This document shows, piece after piece, positions 1-47,309 of a stretch of DNA of 64,000 bases. The notes below the pieces were generated by a model. It saw nothing but the letters and a program-made list of their open reading frames with translations, made no database searches and had not been told where the DNA came from. The translations under genes were made by a program, and so were the position numbers. The DNA is from Escherichia coli. Lineage in GTDB: Bacteria > Pseudomonadota > Gammaproteobacteria > Enterobacterales > Enterobacteriaceae. Each line of letters starts with the position of its first letter. The stretch's first letter is position 1. The DNA lies in assembly GCF_003018235.1 (NCBI RefSeq), contig NZ_CP027437.1. One strand, 5' to 3'.

Positions 1-2
1 CT

Positions 3-65
3 GATAAGGCGCTGGAGTATCTGAAGCAGAACGGACTGATAAGCGTGGAGGATATTTTACGATGA
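3..65 (+). CDS. C-terminal end of an upstream prophage ORF (partial, ...DKALEYLKQNGLISVEDILR*)
   Basis: Frame open from window edge to TGA at 63-65; protein-like composition; identity unknown. Confidence 0.3.
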   Translation, partial: DKALEYLKQNGLISVEDILR

Positions 66-149
66 CCTGGCCTGAAGCATTCACCACGGCAGGAATTGCG
101 ATGGCGGTGGCACTGGTTGTGTATTCTATTTGTCGTTGGGGGTAAACAC

Positions 150-401
150 ATGTTCTCTCTGATTCAGCGTGGTCAGCGGTATGTTGATGCAGCTGGTTAT
201 CCTGTGGAGATTTGTTTTTGTTCTGCTGAGAAAGTGGTGTATCGCCGCCAGGACAATCAGACCCGTTCTGCAAGTATTGTTGACTTTAATCAGAATTTTG
301 AACGTCTGGATTATCACGAATATATACGGATTAAATCAGATATGGAGCAGACAGAACATCTGCGGAAATTAAGACGATTACACAAAAGAGGTGGGGAATA
401 A
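150..401 (+). CDS. hypothetical prophage protein (83 aa)
   Basis: ORF-track frame 96..401 (TTG); first ATG at 150; no recognisable motif. Confidence 0.35.
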   Translation: MFSLIQRGQRYVDAAGYPVEICFCSAEKVVYRRQDNQTRSASIVDFNQNFERLDYHEYIRIKSDMEQTEHLRKLRRLHKRGGE

Positions 402-864
402 CCACGGATAAAGAGAACTAAATTTCGTCAGAATTAACAGGAAATAACTGGAACGAAAAATACACCGCTTACGCGGCGGGGTTTCTGCAACCTTAAAACA
501 GGGTAAGAGAAATGGCAGAGATGATGAACAATAAACTCTTCATAACCAGTCTCTTTAAGTTGACTGGCCGGGAGTAACGACCAGTGGCAATACAAAAAAA
601 CCGCTTGCCAGCGTTTGTCTGGTCGGGTTACATTTCCCGTGCACCTCATAAAACGGGTGCCGGGATTCTCAACCCGCAGAAGAACAGAGCGCATAACCGC
701 GCCAGCGGTTTTTTTATGCGTGCCGTATCGTCACACCTTTTTCGCACACGAATTATGGCGGGGCGTACGGGGCCGACTTCGGTCGGGCCGGATCCTCTGT
801 TCTCCGGTGTTGAGAACCCCGTACGTCTCGCCACCCCGAGATTCTCAACTCTGGATGGTGAGTT

Positions 865-1125
865 ATGTCTATCACTGAACAGAGGTTACCCCTTATGGCA
901 AACCGTAAACAACAGCGCGCCCGCACTGAGCGTCGTCACATCCAGACCGAAATCAACCGCAGACTGTACCGGGCTATCACTGTCGCCAGAGTCATGTACT
1001 TCAATATGCTGTGTGATCAGGGATGCCAGATTGCACCTGATTACATTGCCTCCACGTTCAGTTACCTGGCAGACGATCTGCGGGATATGCAACGCCTGGT
1101 TAACGATCAGGCGCATAACCTGTAA
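865..1125 (+). CDS. hypothetical small basic protein upstream of replication gene
   Basis: ATG with GGTGAG RBS; Arg/Lys-rich N-terminus; 86 aa. Confidence 0.4.
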   Translation: MSITEQRLPLMANRKQQRARTERRHIQTEINRRLYRAITVARVMYFNMLCDQGCQIAPDYIASTFSYLADDLRDMQRLVNDQAHNL

Positions 1126-1203
1126 CGCACTTTTTCCTGAAATCATGAAACGGCACTCCGCTATCTGGCGGGGTGTCTGGCTGCCCGTTATCCGGGAGGA
1201 CAT

Positions 1204-3126
1204 ATGACCGTGTATTCAGCGGGAGGTCCGCGCATGCCTGAGCCGGAAGAAGAACAGGCATTCACTGAAGAGGTGAACAGCGCCTTTTCCGGGCTGCCTC
1301 GTTTTGTGTCTGTAAAGCTGGGGCGCAGGATCAGCAGCGCATGGCAGACAAAGGGTTTTGCCGGTGCACGGGAAAAATTTGCGCTGATGGTTCAGAAGGA
1401 TTTGCCGTTCATTACCGGGGTGAATAAACGTTATGCCATTAATCCGGATGAATTACCGGGGTGGCTGTTTGGTGGGCTGGCATCTGATCAGGCATACGGT
1501 GCGGTTCATTCCATGACCTGGCGATTTAATGCCATGGTGGATGGTGACGACGGGGATGCGCATTTACTGGCTCAGGATCTGTCCGTGTTTCTTATTGCTG
1601 AAATGCAGCACCTGAGTGTTCTTCTTGCGGATGAAGATGCGGATGCGGCGGCAGATGCCATTTATGCCATGGTTGCCGGGCTTGTTGAGCATTTCCGGAT
1701 GGAGCCACCGGACTGGAAGCGTTTTATTGGCAGAAAGCTGACACTGGAGCAACTGACTGTTGCCATCAGCCGGATGCTGAGTGTTCGCTGGTGGCAGGGA
1801 AAACTCAGGGCATTCTCCCGTCGCTGGCGTGAACATCTGCTTATAGCTATGGGTGTCGTTCGTCGGCAGTCTTCACCGCACTGCAGTTATGAATGGGTGC
1901 AGAGGTGGCTGGCGGGGCGTAAGCACGGTCGAAGGCTGATGGCGGAAACGGACGTTGAGGATGAAGAAACAGGAGAAAGATTTTCACTTCTCGATTTGGT
2001 TGACAGCAGCATTTCAGATGCGGAGAAACGCCGCGCAGAGCTGATGACCAGGGTTAAGGGGCTGGAAGATTTAGCCCGTTTTGAAGGTGTGGCGCAGGAG
2101 CAGGGGTATATCGGGCTTTTTTTCACGATGACCGCGCCATCAAAATATCATGCCTGGCTGGAGACAGGATATCGCAATCGTCGTTATAACGGCGCAAGCC
2201 CGAAAGACACACAAAATTATTTCTCCGGACTCTGGCGTCAGATCAGTGCAACGCTGAGGCGCAGGGGGATCGGGATTTTTGGATTAAGAAGTGCCGAACC
2301 GCATCATGACGGAACGCCGCACTGGCATGGTGTTCTCTATGTGCATCAGGAGCATGCTGCCGCCTTACAGGACATTCTTGAGTATTACGCCAACCGCGAT
2401 GATGACGCGGGAAAAACGCCCATCCGCAAAGCAGGAAGAAAATCCCACCTGGAAATAAAACCGGTTCTTGATGATCTGGGGAGTGCCTCTGCCTATATCG
2501 CCAAGCATATTGGAATGAATCTTGACGGTTGTGCGCCAGGCGGAATGAATCATGAAACGGGCCATACACTGGTGGTCACTGCCCGCCACGCCTCGGCGTG
2601 GGCGTCATTATGGGGGATCAAGCAGTTTCAGTTTATAGGCAGCACACCGGTAAGTGTATGGCGTGAGCTGCGTCGCTTTAACAATCAGGCTCATGCTGAC
2701 CGGATAAGCCCGGCGCTGGGTGAGTTACACCGTGCAGCCAGTGAGGGTGACTGGAAAACCTATACCAGGCTGCAGGGTGGACCGTTTGTGGCACGAAGAG
2801 ATCTGGTCCTTCGCACATGGTATCAGCGTTCGGAGGAGCCGGATGAGTGTGGGCTACACACCAGTGCGATCAAAGGTGTTTATATGCCGGGGCGTGATAC
2901 GCCACCGGTAGTGACGCGTTCACGTAACTGGAGGATCACCCGGAACGTTACAACAGGCGCTCTCAATGTTAACCGGGGGTCTGCTTTAACGCCCTGGACT
3001 TGTGTCAATAACTGCATTTCGGGCAGAAAACGACCAGATGGTCATCCTCCGGATCCAGGTATAAGGATCCCTGTTCAACTGGAACTGAACTTCGGGGAAG
3101 AGAATAAAGGGAAAAGTGAGCAGTAA
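1204..3126 (+). CDS. phage replication initiation endonuclease, HUH rolling-circle type (P2/186 gpA-like)
   Basis: 640-aa ORF with GGGAGGA RBS; HUH motif set FFTMTAP, PHWHGVLYV and YIAKHIG in canonical order. Confidence 0.7.
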   Translation: MTVYSAGGPRMPEPEEEQAFTEEVNSAFSGLPRFVSVKLGRRISSAWQTKGFAGAREKFALMVQKDLPFITGVNKRYAINPDELPGWLFGGLASDQAYGAVHSMTWRFNAMVDGDDGDAHLLAQDLSVFLIAEMQHLSVLLADEDADAAADAIYAMVAGLVEHFRMEPPDWKRFIGRKLTLEQLTVAISRMLSVRWWQGKLRAFSRRWREHLLIAMGVVRRQSSPHCSYEWVQRWLAGRKHGRRLMAETDVEDEETGERFSLLDLVDSSISDAEKRRAELMTRVKGLEDLARFEGVAQEQGYIGLFFTMTAPSKYHAWLETGYRNRRYNGASPKDTQNYFSGLWRQISATLRRRGIGIFGLRSAEPHHDGTPHWHGVLYVHQEHAAALQDILEYYANRDDDAGKTPIRKAGRKSHLEIKPVLDDLGSASAYIAKHIGMNLDGCAPGGMNHETGHTLVVTARHASAWASLWGIKQFQFIGSTPVSVWRELRRFNNQAHADRISPALGELHRAASEGDWKTYTRLQGGPFVARRDLVLRTWYQRSEEPDECGLHTSAIKGVYMPGRDTPPVVTRSRNWRITRNVTTGALNVNRGSALTPWTCVNNCISGRKRPDGHPPDPGIRIPVQLELNFGEENKGKSEQ

Positions 3127-7457: not shown

Positions 7458-7534
7458 GCGCCGTTAGCTCAGCTGGACAGAGCAATTGCCTTCTAAGCAA
7501 TCGGTCACTGGTTCGAATCCAGTATGGCGCACCA
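7458..7534 (+). tRNA. tRNA-Arg (anticodon TCT, reads AGA)
   Basis: Cloverleaf folded by hand: 7-bp acceptor stem, perfect 5-bp anticodon stem ATTGC/GCAAT, loop CTTCTAA, T-loop TTCGAAT, encoded CCA. Confidence 0.85.
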
Positions 7535-7535
7535 T

Positions 7536-7610
7536 GCGGTCATCGTATAATGGCTATTACCTCGGCCTTCCAGGCTGATGATGCGGGTTCGATTCCAGCT
7601 GGCCGCTCCA
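7536..7610 (+). tRNA. tRNA-Gly (anticodon TCC), glyT-like with one T-stem mismatch
   Basis: 75 nt, near-identical to E. coli glyT recalled from memory; anticodon loop CTTCCAG; acceptor stem with one G-U; T-stem GCGGG/CCAGC has a G-A mismatch. Confidence 0.7.
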
Positions 7611-7630
7611 TAGAGGATTATGGGGACTGT

Positions 7631-7768
7631 ATGTTGAGTATTTTTCTGCGTTACCTTTCATCGGTAAAAATAAACACACAACAACTATTTATGCTGGCAT
7701 TAGCAATGATAGTTATTGGTTTTCTCGGAACTTGTTTATTTATTTACTATATTTTTGTCGATAATTAA
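7631..7768 (+). CDS. small hydrophobic peptide ORF (45 aa, MLSIFLRYLSSVKINTQQLFMLALAMIVIGFLGTCLFIYYIFVDN)
   Basis: ATG ORF in AT-rich spacer after tRNAs; one predicted TM helix; weak RBS. Confidence 0.25.
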   Translation: MLSIFLRYLSSVKINTQQLFMLALAMIVIGFLGTCLFIYYIFVDN

Positions 7769-7939
7769 TATTTTTAGTATTTAGCCAGAGTGGCCCAAAC
7801 AGAAAATAAAGTTACTGTGAAACAGGGGGGCCTAATAAAAATAATCACCACTAAATTCGGGGCTTTAAAAATGCTAAGAACATCACATTTCATTATGCCG
7901 GGTACTGGAGAATAACATGATGTTTTGTTAAAAATGATT

Positions 7940-7979
7940 TTGCATGGTGAATCCCCCTGTGCGGCGGGGCATAATGACA
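7940..7979 (+). repeat. about 40-bp conserved motif, copy 2
   Basis: See copy 1; a partial inverted copy (GGTCATTGCAG...CACCATGCAG) lies at about 8021-8064. Confidence 0.5.
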
Positions 7980-8321
7980 GATGTTTGGTTGCGTATTGTA
8001 TAGGCAAGTTGCGGATTCTGTCTGGTCATTGCAGAATTCACCGGGAGGCACCCGGCACCATGCAGATAATTGTTTTGTGGATGATAATACCAGCCCCTCT
8101 CCGGAGGGGCTTTCTTATGGGCGAAAAAAAGCCCGGGGAGCCGGGCAATAGCATGAGATATACGTTTTTATAGACGTACAGATTTTAATCAGAATTTATG
8201 GGGCTGCGCAACTGCGTGGCCTTTTTTGTTTTGTGGGCTAAGGTTTTCCCCTTTGATTCGCCATGTGGCTGAACCTGTAGCCCGCCACTGTTCAGACGCA
8301 ATCCCGGCAAGGGGAGGAATA

Positions 8322-39153: not shown

Positions 39154-39214
39154 CCTAAAGAATCAAGACGATCCGGTACGCGTGATTTTCTTTTCACATT
39201 AATCTGGTCAATAA

Positions 39215-39243
39215 CCTTGAATAATTGAGGGATGACCTCATTT
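39215..39243 (+). promoter_or_regulatory. sigma32 heat-shock promoter of clpB (CCTTGAA, 14-nt spacer, CCTCATTT)
   Basis: Match to sigma32 consensus CTTGAAA / CCCCATNT. Confidence 0.6.
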
Positions 39244-39282
39244 AATCTCCAGTAGCAACTTTGATCCGTTATGGGAGGAGTT

Positions 39283-41856
39283 ATGCGTCTGGATCGTCTT
39301 ACTAATAAATTCCAGCTTGCTCTTGCCGATGCCCAATCACTTGCACTCGGGCACGACAACCAATTCATCGAACCACTTCATTTAATGAGCGCCCTGCTGA
39401 ATCAGGAAGGGGGTTCGGTTAGTCCTTTATTAACATCCGCTGGCATAAATGCTGGCCAGTTGCGCACAGATATCAATCAGGCATTAAATCGTTTACCGCA
39501 GGTTGAAGGTACTGGTGGTGATGTCCAGCCATCACAGGATCTGGTGCGCGTTCTTAATCTTTGCGACAAGCTGGCGCAAAAACGTGGTGATAACTTTATC
39601 TCGTCAGAACTGTTCGTTCTGGCGGCACTTGAGTCTCGCGGCACGCTGGCCGACATCCTGAAAGCAGCAGGGGCGACCACCGCCAACATTACTCAAGCGA
39701 TTGAACAAATGCGTGGAGGTGAAAGCGTGAACGATCAAGGTGCTGAAGACCAACGTCAGGCTTTGAAAAAATATACCATCGACCTTACCGAACGAGCCGA
39801 ACAGGGCAAACTCGATCCGGTGATTGGTCGTGATGAAGAAATTCGCCGTACCATTCAGGTGCTGCAACGTCGTACTAAAAATAACCCAGTACTGATTGGT
39901 GAACCCGGCGTCGGTAAAACTGCCATCGTTGAAGGTCTGGCGCAGCGTATTATCAACGGCGAAGTGCCGGAAGGGTTGAAAGGCCGCCGCGTACTGGCGC
40001 TGGATATGGGCGCGCTGGTGGCTGGGGCGAAATATCGCGGTGAGTTTGAAGAACGTTTAAAAGGCGTGCTTAACGATCTTGCCAAACAGGAAGGCAACGT
40101 CATCCTGTTTATCGACGAATTACATACCATGGTCGGCGCGGGTAAAGCCGATGGCGCAATGGACGCCGGAAACATGCTGAAACCGGCGCTGGCGCGTGGT
40201 GAATTGCACTGCGTAGGTGCCACGACGCTTGACGAATATCGCCAGTACATCGAAAAAGATGCTGCGCTGGAACGTCGTTTCCAGAAAGTGTTTGTTGCCG
40301 AGCCTTCTGTTGAAGATACCATTGCGATTCTGCGTGGCCTGAAAGAACGTTACGAATTGCACCACCATGTGCAAATTACTGACCCGGCAATTGTTGCAGC
40401 GGCGACGTTGTCTCATCGCTACATTGCTGACCGTCAGCTGCCGGATAAAGCCATCGACCTGATCGATGAAGCAGCATCCAGCATTCGTATGCAGATCGAC
40501 TCAAAACCAGAAGAACTCGACCGACTCGATCGTCGTATCATCCAGCTTAAACTGGAACAACAGGCGTTAATGAAAGAGTCTGATGAAGCCAGTAAAAAAC
40601 GCCTGGATATGCTCAACGAAGAACTGAGCGACAAAGAACGTCAGTACTCCGAGTTAGAAGAAGAGTGGAAAGCAGAGAAAGCATCGCTTTCTGGTACACA
40701 GACCATTAAAGCGGAACTGGAACAGGCGAAAATCGCTATTGAACAGGCTCGCCGTGTGGGTGACCTGGCGCGGATGTCTGAACTGCAATACGGCAAAATC
40801 CCGGAACTGGAAAAGCAACTGGAAGCCGCAACGCAGCTCGAAGGCAAAACTATGCGTCTGTTGCGTAATAAAGTGACCGATGCCGAAATTGCTGAAGTGC
40901 TGGCGCGTTGGACGGGGATTCCGGTTTCTCGCATGATGGAAAGCGAGCGCGAAAAACTGCTGCGTATGGAGCAAGAGCTGCACCATCGCGTTATTGGTCA
41001 GAACGAAGCGGTTGATGCGGTATCTAACGCTATTCGTCGTAGCCGTGCGGGGCTGGCGGATCCAAATCGCCCGATTGGTTCATTCCTGTTCCTCGGCCCA
41101 ACGGGTGTGGGGAAAACTGAGCTTTGTAAGGCGCTGGCGAACTTTATGTTTGATAGCGACGAGGCGATGGTCCGTATCGATATGTCCGAGTTTATGGAGA
41201 AACACTCGGTGTCTCGTCTGGTTGGTGCGCCTCCGGGATATGTCGGTTATGAAGAAGGTGGCTACCTGACCGAAGCGGTGCGTCGTCGTCCGTATTCCGT
41301 CATCCTGCTGGATGAAGTGGAAAAAGCGCATCCGGATGTCTTCAACATTCTGTTGCAGGTACTGGATGATGGGCGTCTGACTGACGGGCAGGGGAGAACG
41401 GTCGACTTCCGTAATACGGTTGTCATTATGACCTCTAACCTCGGTTCCGATTTGATTCAGGAACGCTTCGGTGAACTGGATTATGCGCACATGAAAGAGC
41501 TGGTGCTCGGTGTGGTAAGCCATAACTTCCGTCCGGAATTCATTAACCGTATCGATGAAGTGGTGGTCTTCCATCCGCTGGGTGAACAGCACATTGCGTC
41601 GATTGCGCAGATTCAGTTGAAACGTCTGTACAAACGTCTGGAAGAACGTGGTTATGAAATCCACATTTCTGACGAGGCGCTGAAACTGCTGAGCGAGAAC
41701 GGTTACGATCCGGTCTATGGTGCACGTCCTCTGAAACGTGCTATCCAGCAGCAGATCGAAAACCCGCTGGCACAGCAAATACTGTCTGGTGAATTGGTTC
41801 CGGGTAAAGTTATTCGCCTGGAAGTTAATGAAGACCGGATTGTCGCCGTCCAGTAA
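39283..41856 (+). CDS. clpB: chaperone ClpB; internal GTG at 39727 for the short isoform
   Basis: 857 aa with two AAA+ modules ([16 protein letters not shown]); internal GTG with GGAGGTGA RBS. Confidence 0.97.
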
Positions 41857-41862
41857 TGATAA

Positions 41863-41890
41863 AACGAGCCCTTCGGGGCTCGTTTTTGTC
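41863..41890 (+). terminator. intrinsic terminator after clpB
   Basis: ACGAGCCC-TTCG-GGGCTCGT hairpin plus TTTTT. Confidence 0.7.
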
Positions 41891-41970
41891 TATAAATTAG
41901 ACGGAAAAGACTATGCTTAAGATGTTTTGCCTGAAAAATGAGCGAACGATAAAGTTTTTATATTTTTTGC

Positions 41971-41998
41971 TTGTCAGGCCGGAATAACTCCCTATAAT
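41971..41998 (+). promoter_or_regulatory. rRNA operon promoter P1 (TTGTCA, 16 nt, TATAAT) with upstream AT-rich UP element
   Basis: Hexamers read directly; classical rrn P1. Confidence 0.8.
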
Positions 41999-42088
41999 GC
42001 GCCACCACTGACACGGAACAACGGCAAACACGCCGCCGGGTCAGCGGGGTTCTCCTGAGAATCTCAACAGAGTCAAGCAAGAAAATGC

Positions 42089-42116
42089 TTGACTCTGTAG
42101 CGGGAAAGCGTATTAT
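42089..42116 (+). promoter_or_regulatory. rRNA operon promoter P2 (TTGACT, 16 nt, TATTAT)
   Basis: Hexamers read directly. Confidence 0.8.
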
Positions 42117-42153
42117 GCACACCCCGCGCCGCTGAGAAAAAGCGAGGCGGCAC

Positions 42154-42166
42154 TGCTCTTTAACAA
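42154..42166 (+). promoter_or_regulatory. rrn leader boxA antitermination element (TGCTCTTTAACAA)
   Basis: Exact boxA consensus; second boxA-like TGCTCTTTAAAAA in 16S-23S spacer near 44076. Confidence 0.75.
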
Positions 42167-42297
42167 TTTATCAGACAATCTGTGTGGGCACTCGAAGATA
42201 CGGATTCTTAACGTCGCAAGACGAAAAATGAATACCAAGTCTCAAGAGTGAACACGTAATTCATTACGAAGTTTAATTCTTTGAGCATCAAACTTTT

Positions 42298-43839
<1,542 letters not shown>

Positions 43840-43924
43840 CCTTAAAGAACTGTGCTTTGCAGTGCTCACACAGATTGTCTGATGAAAAGTGAAAAGCAAG
43901 GCGTCTTGCGAAGCAGACTGATAC

Positions 43925-44000
43925 GTCCCCTTCGTCTAGAGGCCCAGGACACCGCCCTTTCACGGCGGTAACAGGGGTTCGAATCCCCTAGGGGACGCCA
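43925..44000 (+). tRNA. gltW: tRNA-Glu (anticodon TTC) in 16S-23S spacer
   Basis: Exact E. coli tRNA-Glu sequence GTCCCCTTCGTCTAGAGGCCCAGGACACCGCCCTTTCACGGCGGTAACAGGGGTTCGAATCCCCTAGGGGACGCCA. Confidence 0.98.
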
Positions 44001-44203
44001 CTTGCTGGTTTGTGAGTGAAAGTCACCTGCCTTAATATCTCAAAACTCATCTTCGGGTGACGTTTGAGATATTTGCTCTTTAAAAATCTGGATCAAGCTG
44101 AAAATTGAAACACTGAACAACGAAAGTTGTTCGTGAGTCTCTCAAATTTTCGCAACACGATGATGAATCGAAAGAAACATCTTCGGGTTGTGAGGTTAAG
44201 CGA

Positions 44204-47097
<2,894 letters not shown>

Positions 47098-47189
47098 ACA
47101 ACGCCGAAGCTGTTTTGGCGGATGAGAGAAGATTTTCAGCCTGATACAGATTAAATCAGAACGCAGAAGCGGTCTGATGAAACAGAATT

Positions 47190-47309
47190 TGCCTGGCGGC
47201 CTTAGCGCGGTGGTCCCACCTGACCCCATGCCGAACTCAGAAGTGAAACGCCGTAGCGCCGATGGTAGTGTGGGGTCTCCCCATGCGAGAGTAGGGAACT
47301 GCCAGGCAT
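47190..47309 (+). rRNA. rrfG: 5S ribosomal RNA
   Basis: 120 nt TGCCTGGCGGC...GCCAGGCAT. Confidence 0.97.

What the first reader, a model, noticed from the sequence alone, without database searches (positions are those of the whole stretch)
420..860. Structured non-coding region with inverted repeats upstream of the replication module
About 440 bp lack a convincing ORF, with several overlapping short frames. It contains a terminator-like hairpin (ACCGCGCCAGCGGT plus T-run, about 695-715), a UUCG-type tetraloop hairpin (GGCCGAC-TTCG-GTCGGGCC, about 770-790) and the inverted repeat GTTGAGAA...TTCTCAAC (811-852), with ATTCTCAAC also at 664-672. This could encode a regulatory RNA or operator set controlling early genes.
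Basis: seen in the sequence. Interest (0 to 1): 0.3.

Follow-up and report, generated by a model that had tools for sequence, protein, structure and literature searches.

The report
Phage IsrK–C4 antisense RNA immunity cassette
The "structured non-coding region" is a known prophage control module (a promoter, a short IsrK/seqA-type RNA and the C4/CI antisense RNA) whose two recognition sequences match the ribosome-binding region of the next gene; it probably keeps an anti-repressor-like gene and the replication gene silent, as described for phages P1, P4 and Gifsy-1.

Summary
Rfam places two full-length families here, both above their curated thresholds: isrK (641-715, +) and C4 antisense RNA (751-838, +). 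A sigma-70-like promoter (605-634) sits where phage P1 has its annotated c4 promoter. Its UUCG hairpin is an internal C4 hairpin. Its GTTGAGAA/TTCTCAAC repeats are one C4 recognition sequence (a') with its two targets (a1 in IsrK, a2 downstream). Site b2 covers the Shine-Dalgarno of an ATG at 895 that is invariant in 15 aligned cassettes. In all 15 cassettes, P1 included, a'/b' and both target sets change together. The gene after the cassette is a 76-aa relative of the P4 epsilon "derepression" protein, followed by the GPA replication gene. Bases 402-577 are not part of the element; they are the remnant of a deleted Rha-family gene. Function is inferred by homology, and no expression data were available. 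Interest is low.

The parts
402..577 (+). Not part of the RNA element. This is the remnant of a Rha-family regulator locus: its 5' UTR, the ATG at 512 plus the first 8 codons (512-535), a junction (536-557), and the last codons with TAA at 575-577.
   Evidence: Window 382-535 and 558-919 each match E. coli SCU-171 (L015) at 86%. In SCU-171 the two matches are separated by the 643-nt body of a 229-aa Rha gene. The segment 402-600 is found in only 6 of 5426 E. coli genomes.
605..634 (+). Sigma-70-like promoter of the cassette: -35 TTGCCA at 605-610, 18-nt spacer, -10 TACATT at 629-634. It predicts a transcription start at about 641.
   Evidence: Consensus scan. The hexamers align with the annotated P1c4 (P51b) -35 TTGACC and -10 TATAGT of phage P1. 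The IsrK model starts at 641. The block conserved in about 1160 E. coli genomes begins at 592.
641..715 (+). IsrK-type RNA, equivalent to P4 seqA and the P1 a1/b1 leader. It has hairpin 1 (641-660), hairpin 2 (661-676) with a1 UUCUCAAC (666-673) in its loop, b1 AGAACAGAG (681-689), and an intrinsic terminator at 695-710 followed by U7.
   Evidence: Rfam RF01394 at 65.4 bits (threshold 50), full length. Fold z = -3.0. Terminator scan. Complementarity to C4. Covariation of a1/b1 with a'/b'.
751..838 (+). C4/CI-type antisense RNA. It has an outer stem (756-772 with 817-833), a UUCG hairpin (773-786), and a hairpin at 787-808 whose loop carries b' (CCUCUGUUCU, 794-803). The single-stranded a' GUUGAGAA lies at 809-816, and the 3' tail CCCCG at 834-838 follows GCCA.
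   Evidence: Rfam RF01695 at 77 bits (threshold 45), positions 1-87 of 87. MFE -49.8 kcal/mol, z = -4.2. 94% of cells are paired and 19 pairs show compensatory changes across 15 cassettes, 0/500 shuffles.
842..849 (+). Target site a2 (UUCUCAAC), complementary to C4 a'.
   Evidence: Exact 8-nt complement. An a2 matching its own a' is present in all 15 cassettes, with at least 9 different sequences.
877..885 (+). Target site b2 (GAACAGAGG), complementary to the C4 b' loop. It contains the Shine-Dalgarno AGAGG (881-885), 9 nt before the ATG at 895.
   Evidence: Exact 9-nt complement. Predicted duplex of C4 790-819 with 841-886 is -31.5 kcal/mol, and the summed a+b energy was reached by 0/1000 shuffled targets. 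b2 ends 9-14 nt before the invariant ATG in all 15 cassettes, as for P1 b2 and icd.
895..1125 (+). First regulated gene: a 76-aa protein related to P4 epsilon, annotated 'derepression protein' in relatives. The true start is the ATG at 895, not the ATG at 865.
   Evidence: The ATG at 895 is invariant in 15 cassettes, while the ATG at 865 is not conserved. phrog_3688 matches residues 1-74 of a 76-position profile, E = 5.5e-32. The protein is 58% identical to the P88 protein, which passes the Pfam PF25738 threshold; P4 epsilon scores 170 bits on that model and the window protein only 19.9. Codon periodicity is 0.40/0.30/0.61.
1204..3126 (+). GPA-type replication endonuclease. It lies downstream in the same transcription unit and is presumed to be controlled indirectly, by polarity.
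   Evidence: Pfam PF05840 at 259 bits. The gene order matches P88-type phages and the 99%-identical prophage in E. coli SCU-111. Control by C4 is inferred only.
755..1207 (+). Unexplained 150-codon open frame. It starts at the AUG in the C4 5' tail (the position of Gifsy-1 orf45), crosses the epsilon-like gene in its +1 frame, and ends in ATGA on the GPA start codon.
   Evidence: The same arrangement is seen in 7 of 7 E. coli and phage relatives. There is no coding signature, and the frame is truncated or shifted in some viral contigs.

Best explanation
Bases 592-894 are one copy of the IsrK-C4 (P4 seqA-CI-seqC; P1 a1b1-c4-a2b2) RNA immunity cassette, embedded in the early operon of a P2-like/lambdoid hybrid prophage.

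Proposed mechanism, with each step marked as shown or inferred:
1. A constitutive sigma-70 promoter (605-634) starts transcription at about 641. This is inferred from the consensus match and from positional homology to the P1 promoter.
2. Most transcripts stop at the IsrK terminator and give the roughly 75-nt IsrK RNA. Read-through transcripts carry C4 (751-838), which in P1 and P4 is cut out by RNase P and 3' trimming. Processing is inferred here.
3. Free C4 pairs through its loop b' (794-803) and single-stranded a' (809-816) with a2 (842-849) and b2 (877-885) on any mRNA of the same specificity. The complementarity and its co-variation are shown here.
4. Site b2 covers the Shine-Dalgarno of the ATG at 895, so translation of the 76-aa epsilon-like protein is blocked. 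By analogy with P1 icd-ant and the P4 left operon, the untranslated leader then suffers premature (Rho-dependent) termination. That would also keep the GPA replication gene off in the lysogen and in a superinfecting phage of the same type. This step is inferred.
5. IsrK carries a second copy of the targets (a1, b1). It can either sequester C4 within the same read-through transcript or titrate C4 in trans, as proposed for Gifsy-1, which would make the switch reversible. This step is inferred.
For: Family identity:
- Both Rfam models match at full length and above threshold.
- P4 seqA and CI hit the same two models at 60.8 and 74.9 bits.
- The layout matches the feature table of phage P1: promoter, a1, b1, C4, a2, b2, then the icd ATG about 10 nt after b2.
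- The predicted promoter hexamers align with the P1 hexamers.

Recognition sites:
- There are exact 8- and 9-nt complements at both target sets.
- Predicted duplex energies are -31.5 kcal/mol (downstream) and -32.4 kcal/mol (IsrK). Shuffled targets reached the summed a+b values in 0/1000 and 5/1000 trials.
- In 15 cassettes with at least 10 specificities, every C4 has 7-10-nt complements both upstream and downstream.
- For a1/b1 against a'/b', 82% of cells are paired and 70 cells carry double changes. No shuffle in 500 reached this. The covariation score is 0.69, against 0.22 or less when the partners are slid.
- Matches of a C4 to its own downstream targets average 15.9 nt, against 8.8 nt to the targets of other cassettes.
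- Compared with its close relative SCU-171, 29 of 66 recognition-site positions differ against 19 of 237 elsewhere (p = 1e-10).

Structure and context:
- The internal helices co-vary.
- The predicted fold of the read-through RNA pairs IsrK a1/b1 with C4 a'/b', like 'structure A' of Gifsy-1.
- All 80 viral-contig loci that encode the epsilon-like gene (52 distinct upstream-region-plus-gene sequences) were examined. Thirty-nine distinct loci showed the C4 loop pattern in a pattern scan, and the other 13 were confirmed by Rfam to carry isrK and C4 at the same fixed distance.

Literature:
- PMC3632133 names the 'IsrK-C4 immunity system' and equates it with P4 seqA/CI.
- PMC4825925 says the same for IsrK and STnc1160.
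- PMC2864571 defined the c4 and c4-a1b1 motifs.
Against: - No transcript, processing or repression data exist for this locus. Everything functional rests on homology.
- The promoter is a 9/12 consensus match only.
- The Rfam c4-a1b1 model (RF03163) does not hit the window at E <= 1. Only the isrK model does.
- The column-wise covariation test for a2/b2 is weak (61% paired; a slide of -3 gives 0.245 against 0.277) because indels shift the register. Support for a2/b2 therefore comes from the alignment-free tests.
- The downstream protein scores below the Pfam threshold for the epsilon family (19.9 against 27) and has no direct BLAST similarity to P4 epsilon. Its antirepressor role is a guess.
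- In Gifsy-1 the experimentally shown effect of IsrK is activation, not repression.
Confidence: 0.85

Rival explanations
1. The cassette works mainly as an activator switch, as shown for Gifsy-1. The read-through mRNA is locked in an inactive fold, with the middle of IsrK paired to the C4 region. Short IsrK made in trans opens that fold, allowing translation from the AUG in the C4 5' tail (the orf45 position, window 755) and, by ribosome transit, of downstream genes. On this view C4 as a free antisense repressor is secondary.
For: Gifsy-1 experiments are reported in PMC4825925. The MFE of window 641-910 pairs IsrK a1/b1 with C4 a'/b'. The AUG at 755 is conserved (AUUAUGG) and opens a 150-codon frame that ends in ATGA on the GPA start codon. 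The same arrangement is found in 7 of 7 relatives.
Against: The a2/b2 sites co-vary with C4 and bracket the SD and ATG at 895, which is the geometry of P1-type repression. There is no recognisable SD before the AUG at 755. The long frame is shifted or truncated in L044, L046 and L091, and is closed after 14 codons in P1. It has no codon periodicity. The two models are not mutually exclusive.
Confidence: 0.3
2. The region encodes a protein, the 'Ash family protein' or P4 'cI repressor', from the 207-aa ORF at 584-1207. On this view the RNA structures are incidental.
For: This frame has no stop across the cassette in 14 of 15 copies. Pfam PF10554 and PHROGs 995, 821 and 6928 match translations of the cassette in relatives or in the window. 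PGAP annotates 'ash family protein' at this position in other genomes.
Against: The window ORF itself gets no Pfam or NCBIfam hit. Variation by codon position in this frame is flat or inverted (0.79/0.84/0.71). Base-pair covariation and G-U tolerance are RNA signatures. The protein-family matches stop where the RNAs stop. P1 has stops in this frame. The P4 immunity factor is stated to be an RNA. The C-terminal 110 aa overlap a gene that has a proper coding signature.
Confidence: 0.04
3. The repeats are DNA operators for a repressor protein, for example the prophage's P2 C-like repressor, controlling an early promoter.
For: The repeats are inverted and direct 8-9-mers near a promoter-like site, and P1 has a C1 operator just upstream of its c4 promoter.
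Against: The three copies follow the order and strand logic of antiparallel RNA pairing: target order a then b, C4 order b' then a'. They lie inside or after transcribed structured RNAs rather than around the promoter. Some relatives keep the pairing only through G-U. Specificities vary among phages whose neighbouring proteins are nearly identical.
Confidence: 0.02
4. The cassette is intact in sequence but is a silent relic, because the prophage is defective. The adjacent Rha gene has already been deleted.
For: There is a deletion scar immediately upstream. Pseudogenes are present in the 99%-identical SCU-111 prophage.
Against: All six recognition sites are perfectly matched, both RNAs score as well as those of active phages such as P88 and P1, and the downstream ORFs are intact.
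Confidence: 0.1

Closest known systems
Phage P1/P7 immI region (P51b promoter, a1 b1, c4 RNA, a2 b2, icd, ant)
   Same: The order, strand and spacing of the promoter, both target sets and C4 are the same. The site b2 lies about 9-10 nt before the first ORF's ATG. C4 has the same three-helix structure. Specificity sits in two short sequences that differ between phages (heteroimmunity).
   Different: The leader here has the IsrK three-hairpin form with its own strong terminator. The controlled genes are an epsilon-like 76-aa protein and GPA, not icd and ant. The host element is a P2-like/lambdoid prophage, not a plasmid prophage. No C1-type operator was identified.
Satellite phage P4 immunity (PLE, seqA, CI RNA with seqB, seqC, then kil/eta, epsilon, alpha)
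   Same: P4 seqA hits the isrK model and CI hits the C4 model. The cassette precedes an epsilon-family gene and the replication gene. It is thus an RNA immunity placed in front of replication functions.
   Different: Here the epsilon-like gene is the first ORF after the cassette. The replication protein is a P2 GPA-type endonuclease, not the alpha primase-helicase. The element also carries a P2-type C/Cox protein switch, seen in the 99%-identical relative, so the RNA is a second layer of control rather than the only immunity.
Salmonella Gifsy-1 isrK, orf45 (STnc1160), anrP locus
   Same: The isrK family is the same, the terminator read-through design is the same, and IsrK is complementary to the downstream processed RNA. 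The predicted inactive fold is the same.
   Different: The downstream gene in Gifsy-1 is an antirepressor that induces AntQ. The experimentally shown role of IsrK there is activation in trans. Here nothing has been tested, and the orf45-equivalent frame is 150 codons long rather than 45.
P88-type Peduoviridae (Xuanwuvirus) and about 1160 E. coli prophages carrying the same cassette
   Same: They share 82-88% identical cassette DNA from 592 to 884, and the gene order is the same: cassette, epsilon-like gene, then replication endonuclease.
   Different: The window's b specificity (CUCUGUUCU) was not seen in any other cassette examined, and its a specificity is shared with only some of them. The window lacks the small gene that sits between epsilon and GPA in P88. 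The late region of this prophage is lambdoid, with Q and lysis genes.

Membership tests
C4 antisense RNA (Rfam RF01695; P1 c4 / P4 CI) | A full-length covariance-model match above the curated threshold | tested here: met
   77 bits against a gathering score of 45, model positions 1-87 of 87, E = 1.2e-14.
C4 antisense RNA (Rfam RF01695; P1 c4 / P4 CI) | A long closing stem enclosing two hairpins, supported by compensatory changes | tested here: met
   The MFE equals the family structure, at -49.8 kcal/mol and z = -4.2. The outer stem is 98% paired with 7 covarying pairs, and all 5 pairs of the UUCG hairpin covary.
C4 antisense RNA (Rfam RF01695; P1 c4 / P4 CI) | Two exposed recognition sequences (a', b') complementary to a2/b2 on the same-strand mRNA just downstream, with b2 at the ribosome-binding site of the first ORF | tested here: met
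   8- and 9-nt exact complements at 842-849 and 877-885. b2 includes the SD, 9 nt before the ATG at 895. Own versus other-cassette matches: 15.9 nt against 8.8 nt.
C4 antisense RNA (Rfam RF01695; P1 c4 / P4 CI) | A second target pair (a1, b1) upstream in the same transcript | tested here: met
   Sites at 666-673 and 681-689. Covariation score 0.69, 0/500 shuffles.
C4 antisense RNA (Rfam RF01695; P1 c4 / P4 CI) | Excision from a longer precursor by RNase P (tRNA-like stem followed by a CCA-like 3' tail) | not testable with these tools
   The stem is followed by GCCACC, and the CC.CC columns are invariant in 15 cassettes. Processing itself needs experiments. RNase P processing of c4 and CI is recalled from the literature and was not verified here.
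C4 antisense RNA (Rfam RF01695; P1 c4 / P4 CI) | Represses translation and transcription of the downstream operon in trans, and confers immunity | not testable with these tools
   There are no expression or genetic data for this locus.
isrK / P4 seqA-type leader RNA (Rfam RF01394) | A full-length covariance-model match above the curated threshold | tested here: met
   65.4 bits against 50, positions 1-77 of 77. The P4 seqA region scores 60.8 bits on the same model.
isrK / P4 seqA-type leader RNA (Rfam RF01394) | Three hairpins, the last being a Rho-independent terminator | tested here: met
   Structure line. Terminator at 695-710 plus T7. Hairpin 1 has 5 covarying pairs.
isrK / P4 seqA-type leader RNA (Rfam RF01394) | Its own promoter immediately upstream, so that the 5' end is a primary transcript start | tested here: inconclusive
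   A 9/12 consensus promoter ends 7 nt before 641 and aligns with the annotated promoter of P1. No transcription-start data are available.
isrK / P4 seqA-type leader RNA (Rfam RF01394) | Hfq binding | not testable with these tools
   This is a biochemical property.
c4-a1b1 motif (Rfam RF03163) | A covariance-model match | tested here: not met
   No hit at E <= 1 in window 1-3000. That model hits P4 and some other cassettes. The a1/b1 function is nevertheless present here, inside an isrK-type leader.
P4 epsilon 'Derepression' protein family (Pfam PF25738), for the downstream ORF 895-1125 | A profile match above the gathering score | tested here: not met
   19.9 bits against 27, and no BLASTP similarity to P4 epsilon. 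Homology is only transitive: the window protein is 58% identical to the P88 protein, which scores 31.8 bits.
Ash protein family (Pfam PF10554), for the ORF 584-1207 | A profile match plus a protein-coding signature | tested here: not met
   No hit at E <= 0.01 for the window ORF, and no codon periodicity. In relatives the profile covers only the translated RNA cassette.

The most novel reading that the evidence does not exclude
The open frame that starts at the conserved AUG inside the C4 5' tail (window 755) may be deliberately kept open as a ribosome 'transit lane'. It crosses the whole epsilon-like gene in its +1 frame and ends in ATGA exactly on the start codon of the next gene (GPA here). 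If so, C4 DNA would double as the start of a long overlapping uORF that translationally couples replication-gene expression to the RNA switch. That would extend the 45-codon orf45-anrP coupling of Gifsy-1 to a 150-codon out-of-frame overlap.
Probability: 0.12. Interest if true: 0.45.

Novelty: already known. Interest (0 to 1): 0.14.

Why it matters
Practically, it corrects annotation. Neither RNA is annotated in the 99%-identical RefSeq genome, and the same cassette is called 'ash family protein', or is fused onto Rha proteins, in other genomes. The ATG at 895, not the ATG at 865, is the start of the downstream gene.

Biologically, it shows that this P2-like/lambdoid hybrid prophage carries a P1/P4-style RNA immunity in front of its epsilon-like gene and its replication gene. 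It also shows that such cassettes sit in about 30% of complete E. coli genomes (1666 of 5426) with many reassorting specificities. That is useful background for prophage-prophage and prophage-satellite cross-immunity, but it is not a new principle.

Tried and rejected
- NCBIfam on the four local ORFs gave nothing.
- The ATG at 865 was rejected as the gene start. It is not conserved, whereas the ATG at 895 is invariant and fits the 76-position PHROG profile.
- Direct BLASTP of the 76-aa protein against P4 epsilon found no similarity. Only a transitive link through the P88 protein remains.
- The column-based covariation test for a2/b2 was weak because indels shift the register. It was replaced by alignment-free complement searches and a matrix comparing each C4 with its own and with other cassettes' targets.
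- The 'Ash' protein reading was rejected.
- The minus-strand ORF at 434-694, annotated as hypothetical in P88, has no family support.
- Trans targets elsewhere in the window were sought. The other TTCTCAAC and GAACAGAG copies are isolated and never paired.
- A function for 402-600 was sought. It proved to be a rare deletion scar.
- Synonymous-codon randomisation of the epsilon-like gene, to test whether the overlapping frame is selectively kept open, was ambiguous. P(no stop) is 0.004-0.37 with E. coli codon usage but 0.2-0.8 with the gene's own codons (an earlier run, timed out).
- The P4 primary paper PMC176756 is not held in the library.

Full report
**1. What is in the sequence**

The interval lies between a DUF4222 gene (150-401) and a small ORF that is followed by a GPA-type replication endonuclease at 1204-3126.
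- the terminator hairpin AACCGC-GCCA-GCGGTT at 695-710, plus T7;
- the UUCG hairpin at 773-786;
- GTTGAGAA at 809-816 with its complement TTCTCAAC at 842-849;
- a further TTCTCAAC at 666-673.

CUCUGUUC(U) at 794-803 has complements AGAACAGAG at 681-689 and GAACAGAGG at 877-885. Both words are over-represented in the 64-kb window only because of this cluster.

**2. Identity**

An Rfam scan returns two full-length matches above the curated thresholds. They are isrK (RF01394, 641-715, 65.4 bits against 50) and C4 antisense RNA (RF01695, 751-838, 77 bits against 45), both on the + strand. No other family reached its gathering score within 1-3000, and neither family has a second copy elsewhere in the window.

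A sigma-70-like promoter (TTGCCA, 18 nt, TACATT; 605-634) ends 7 nt before the IsrK 5' end. The GenBank record of phage P1 annotates the experimentally studied layout: P1c4 promoter, a1, b1, C4 RNA, a2, b2, then the icd start about 10 nt after b2. The window aligns to it element by element, promoter hexamers included.

P4's seqA and CI regions hit the same two Rfam models. The equivalence of IsrK with seqA and of C4 with CI, under the name 'IsrK-C4 immunity system', is already in the literature (PMC3632133; PMC4825925). The c4 and c4-a1b1 motifs were defined in PMC2864571.

**3. Anatomy**

In the C4 fold (-49.8 kcal/mol, z = -4.2):
- b' is the loop of the second hairpin;

Site a1 sits in the loop of IsrK hairpin 2, and b1 lies between that hairpin and the terminator. 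Site a2 follows C4 by 3 nt. Site b2 contains the Shine-Dalgarno AGAGG, 9 nt before the ATG at 895.

The predicted duplexes of C4 790-819 are -31.5 kcal/mol with 841-886 and -32.4 kcal/mol with IsrK. Shuffled targets reached the summed a+b energies in 0/1000 and 5/1000 trials. The read-through RNA 641-910 is predicted to fold with IsrK a1/b1 paired to C4 a'/b'. This corresponds to the inactive 'structure A' described for Gifsy-1.

**4. Evidence from relatives**

The block 592-884 is present at 82-88% identity in about 1160 complete E. coli genomes, and recognisably in 1666 of 5426. It is also found in P88-type Peduoviridae, a Citrobacter phage and Stx2a phages.

I collected 15 cassettes, including P1.
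- In every one, a' and b' have exact 7-10-nt complements downstream, and a' also has one upstream. The upstream b1 match is 7-9 nt in 12 cassettes and shorter as an exact match in three, where at least one keeps the pairing through G-U. There are at least 10 different specificities.
- Column-wise, a1/b1 against a'/b' is 82% paired, with 70 double-change cells. No shuffle in 500 reached this, and slid controls gave 0.22 or less against 0.69.
- The internal helices of both RNAs are 94% paired, with 19 covarying pairs.
- A matrix comparing each C4 with its own and with other cassettes' downstream targets gives 15.9 nt against 8.8 nt.
- Compared with the closest different-specificity relative (SCU-171), differences pile up in the six recognition sites: 29 of 66 positions against 19 of 237 elsewhere (p = 1e-10).
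- Eighty viral-contig loci encode the downstream protein (52 distinct upstream-region-plus-gene sequences). Thirty-nine distinct loci showed the C4 loop pattern in a pattern scan, and the other 13 were confirmed by Rfam to carry isrK and C4 at the same fixed distance. The a and b types reassort freely while the protein barely changes.

This is the P1/P7 heteroimmunity logic on a larger scale.

**5. What it controls**

The conserved start is the ATG at 895. It is invariant in all 15 cassettes, whereas the ATG at 865 is peculiar to this lineage. The 76-aa product matches phrog_3688 end to end and has a normal coding signature. It is 58% identical to the P88 'derepression protein', which passes the Pfam threshold of the P4 epsilon family. 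The window protein itself does not pass it (19.9 against 27 bits) and has no direct similarity to epsilon. GPA follows 78 nt later.

By analogy with P1 (icd-ant) and P4 (left operon), blocking translation of the first ORF should also terminate transcription before the replication gene. That step is inference. In the 99%-identical prophage of E. coli SCU-111 the cassette lies in the rightward early operon of an element with a P2-type integrase, C and Cox, and with lambdoid Q and lysis genes. Two further C4 cassettes of other specificities lie upstream of the window's start.

**6. The left part of the interval**

Bases 402-577 are not part of the element. Window 382-535 and 558-919 match E. coli SCU-171 at 86%, either side of a 229-aa Rha-family gene that is missing here. 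The window keeps only that gene's RBS, its first 8 codons (ATG 512) and its last codons. The segment occurs in 6 of 5426 genomes. This explains the ORF-free, 'several short frames' appearance.

**7. Rivals**

*Protein-coding 'Ash' ORF (584-1207).* One frame is stop-free across 14 of 15 cassettes, and Pfam PF10554 and several PHROGs match it. However, those matches end where the RNAs end. There is no codon periodicity, P1 has stops in this frame, and the window ORF gets no hit. I read these protein families as conceptual translations of the RNA cassette, like the old P4 'cI protein' entry.

*DNA operators.* The strand and order logic and the G-U tolerance argue against this.

*Gifsy-1-type activation by IsrK.* This is compatible with the anatomy and may coexist with C4 repression.

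**8. Unexplained residue**

The frame opened by the AUG in the C4 5' tail (755, the position of Gifsy-1 orf45) runs 148-150 codons in all seven E. coli and phage relatives of the epsilon group. It crosses the epsilon-like gene in its +1 frame and always ends in ATGA on the next gene's start codon.

Synonymous randomisation is ambiguous. The frame is shifted or truncated in L044, L046 and L091 and ends differently in L072, L075 and L080. I therefore give the 'ribosome transit' reading a low probability.

**9. Verdict**

The finding is a correct observation of an already described system. The interpretation as a regulatory RNA is supported. Function here is inferred by strong homology and covariation, without expression data. 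Novelty: already known. Interest is low.

Noticed in passing
window 402-577: A deletion scar of a Rha-family regulator gene. Only its RBS, first 8 codons (ATG 512) and last codons (TAA 575-577) remain. E. coli SCU-171 has the intact 229-aa gene between the two flanks.
   Followed up: yes
window 584-1207; L003 2493-3110; L004 2461-3312; L006 2444-3112: Pfam PF10554 (Phage_ASH) and PHROGs 995, 821 and 6928 ('transcriptional regulator/repressor') match only the conceptual translation of the isrK-C4 cassette. PGAP's 'ash family protein' CDSs and N-terminally extended 'Rha family' CDSs cover the RNAs. These are likely artefactual protein families.
   Followed up: partly
window 755-1207: A 150-codon frame starts at the AUG in the C4 5' tail, overlaps the epsilon-like gene in its +1 frame and ends in ATGA on the GPA start codon. 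The same is true in 7 of 7 relatives, but the frame is truncated or shifted in a few viral contigs. The +1 frame of the epsilon-like gene has no stop in any homolog examined.
   Followed up: partly
L005 2498-3609; L004 1859-2703; L001 4479-4925 and 12265-12462: Cassettes occur in tandem or several per prophage: three in E. coli 2012C-4502 (each followed by an Icd-like ORF), two in TUM11356, and three in the SCU-111 prophage that is 99% identical to the window. Where a'/b' could be read (one L001 cassette escaped the pattern scan), the recognition sequences differ between copies.
   Followed up: partly
L016-L095 (viral contigs): Among P88-type phages the a and b recognition sequences reassort independently (at least 6 a types and at least 8 b types) while the downstream 76-aa protein is nearly invariant. 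This suggests diversifying selection on RNA immunity specificity.
   Followed up: partly
window 7458-8122: Three tRNA genes (7458-7607) are followed by an STnc100 sRNA match (7912-8122, 145.6 bits), downstream of the Q antiterminator and methyltransferase region of the prophage.
   Followed up: no
window 39164-47307: RyfD sRNA (39164-39302) and a complete rRNA operon (16S 42298-43839, a tRNA, StyR-44, 23S 44194-47097, 5S 47192-47307) show that the right part of the window is host chromosome, so the prophage ends before about 39 kb.
   Followed up: no
L009 1716-2190: In a Qin/DicB-type prophage region of E. coli strain 222, DicF, an STnc100-like sequence, isrK and C4 lie in a row upstream of a Rha gene and dicB.
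   Followed up: no
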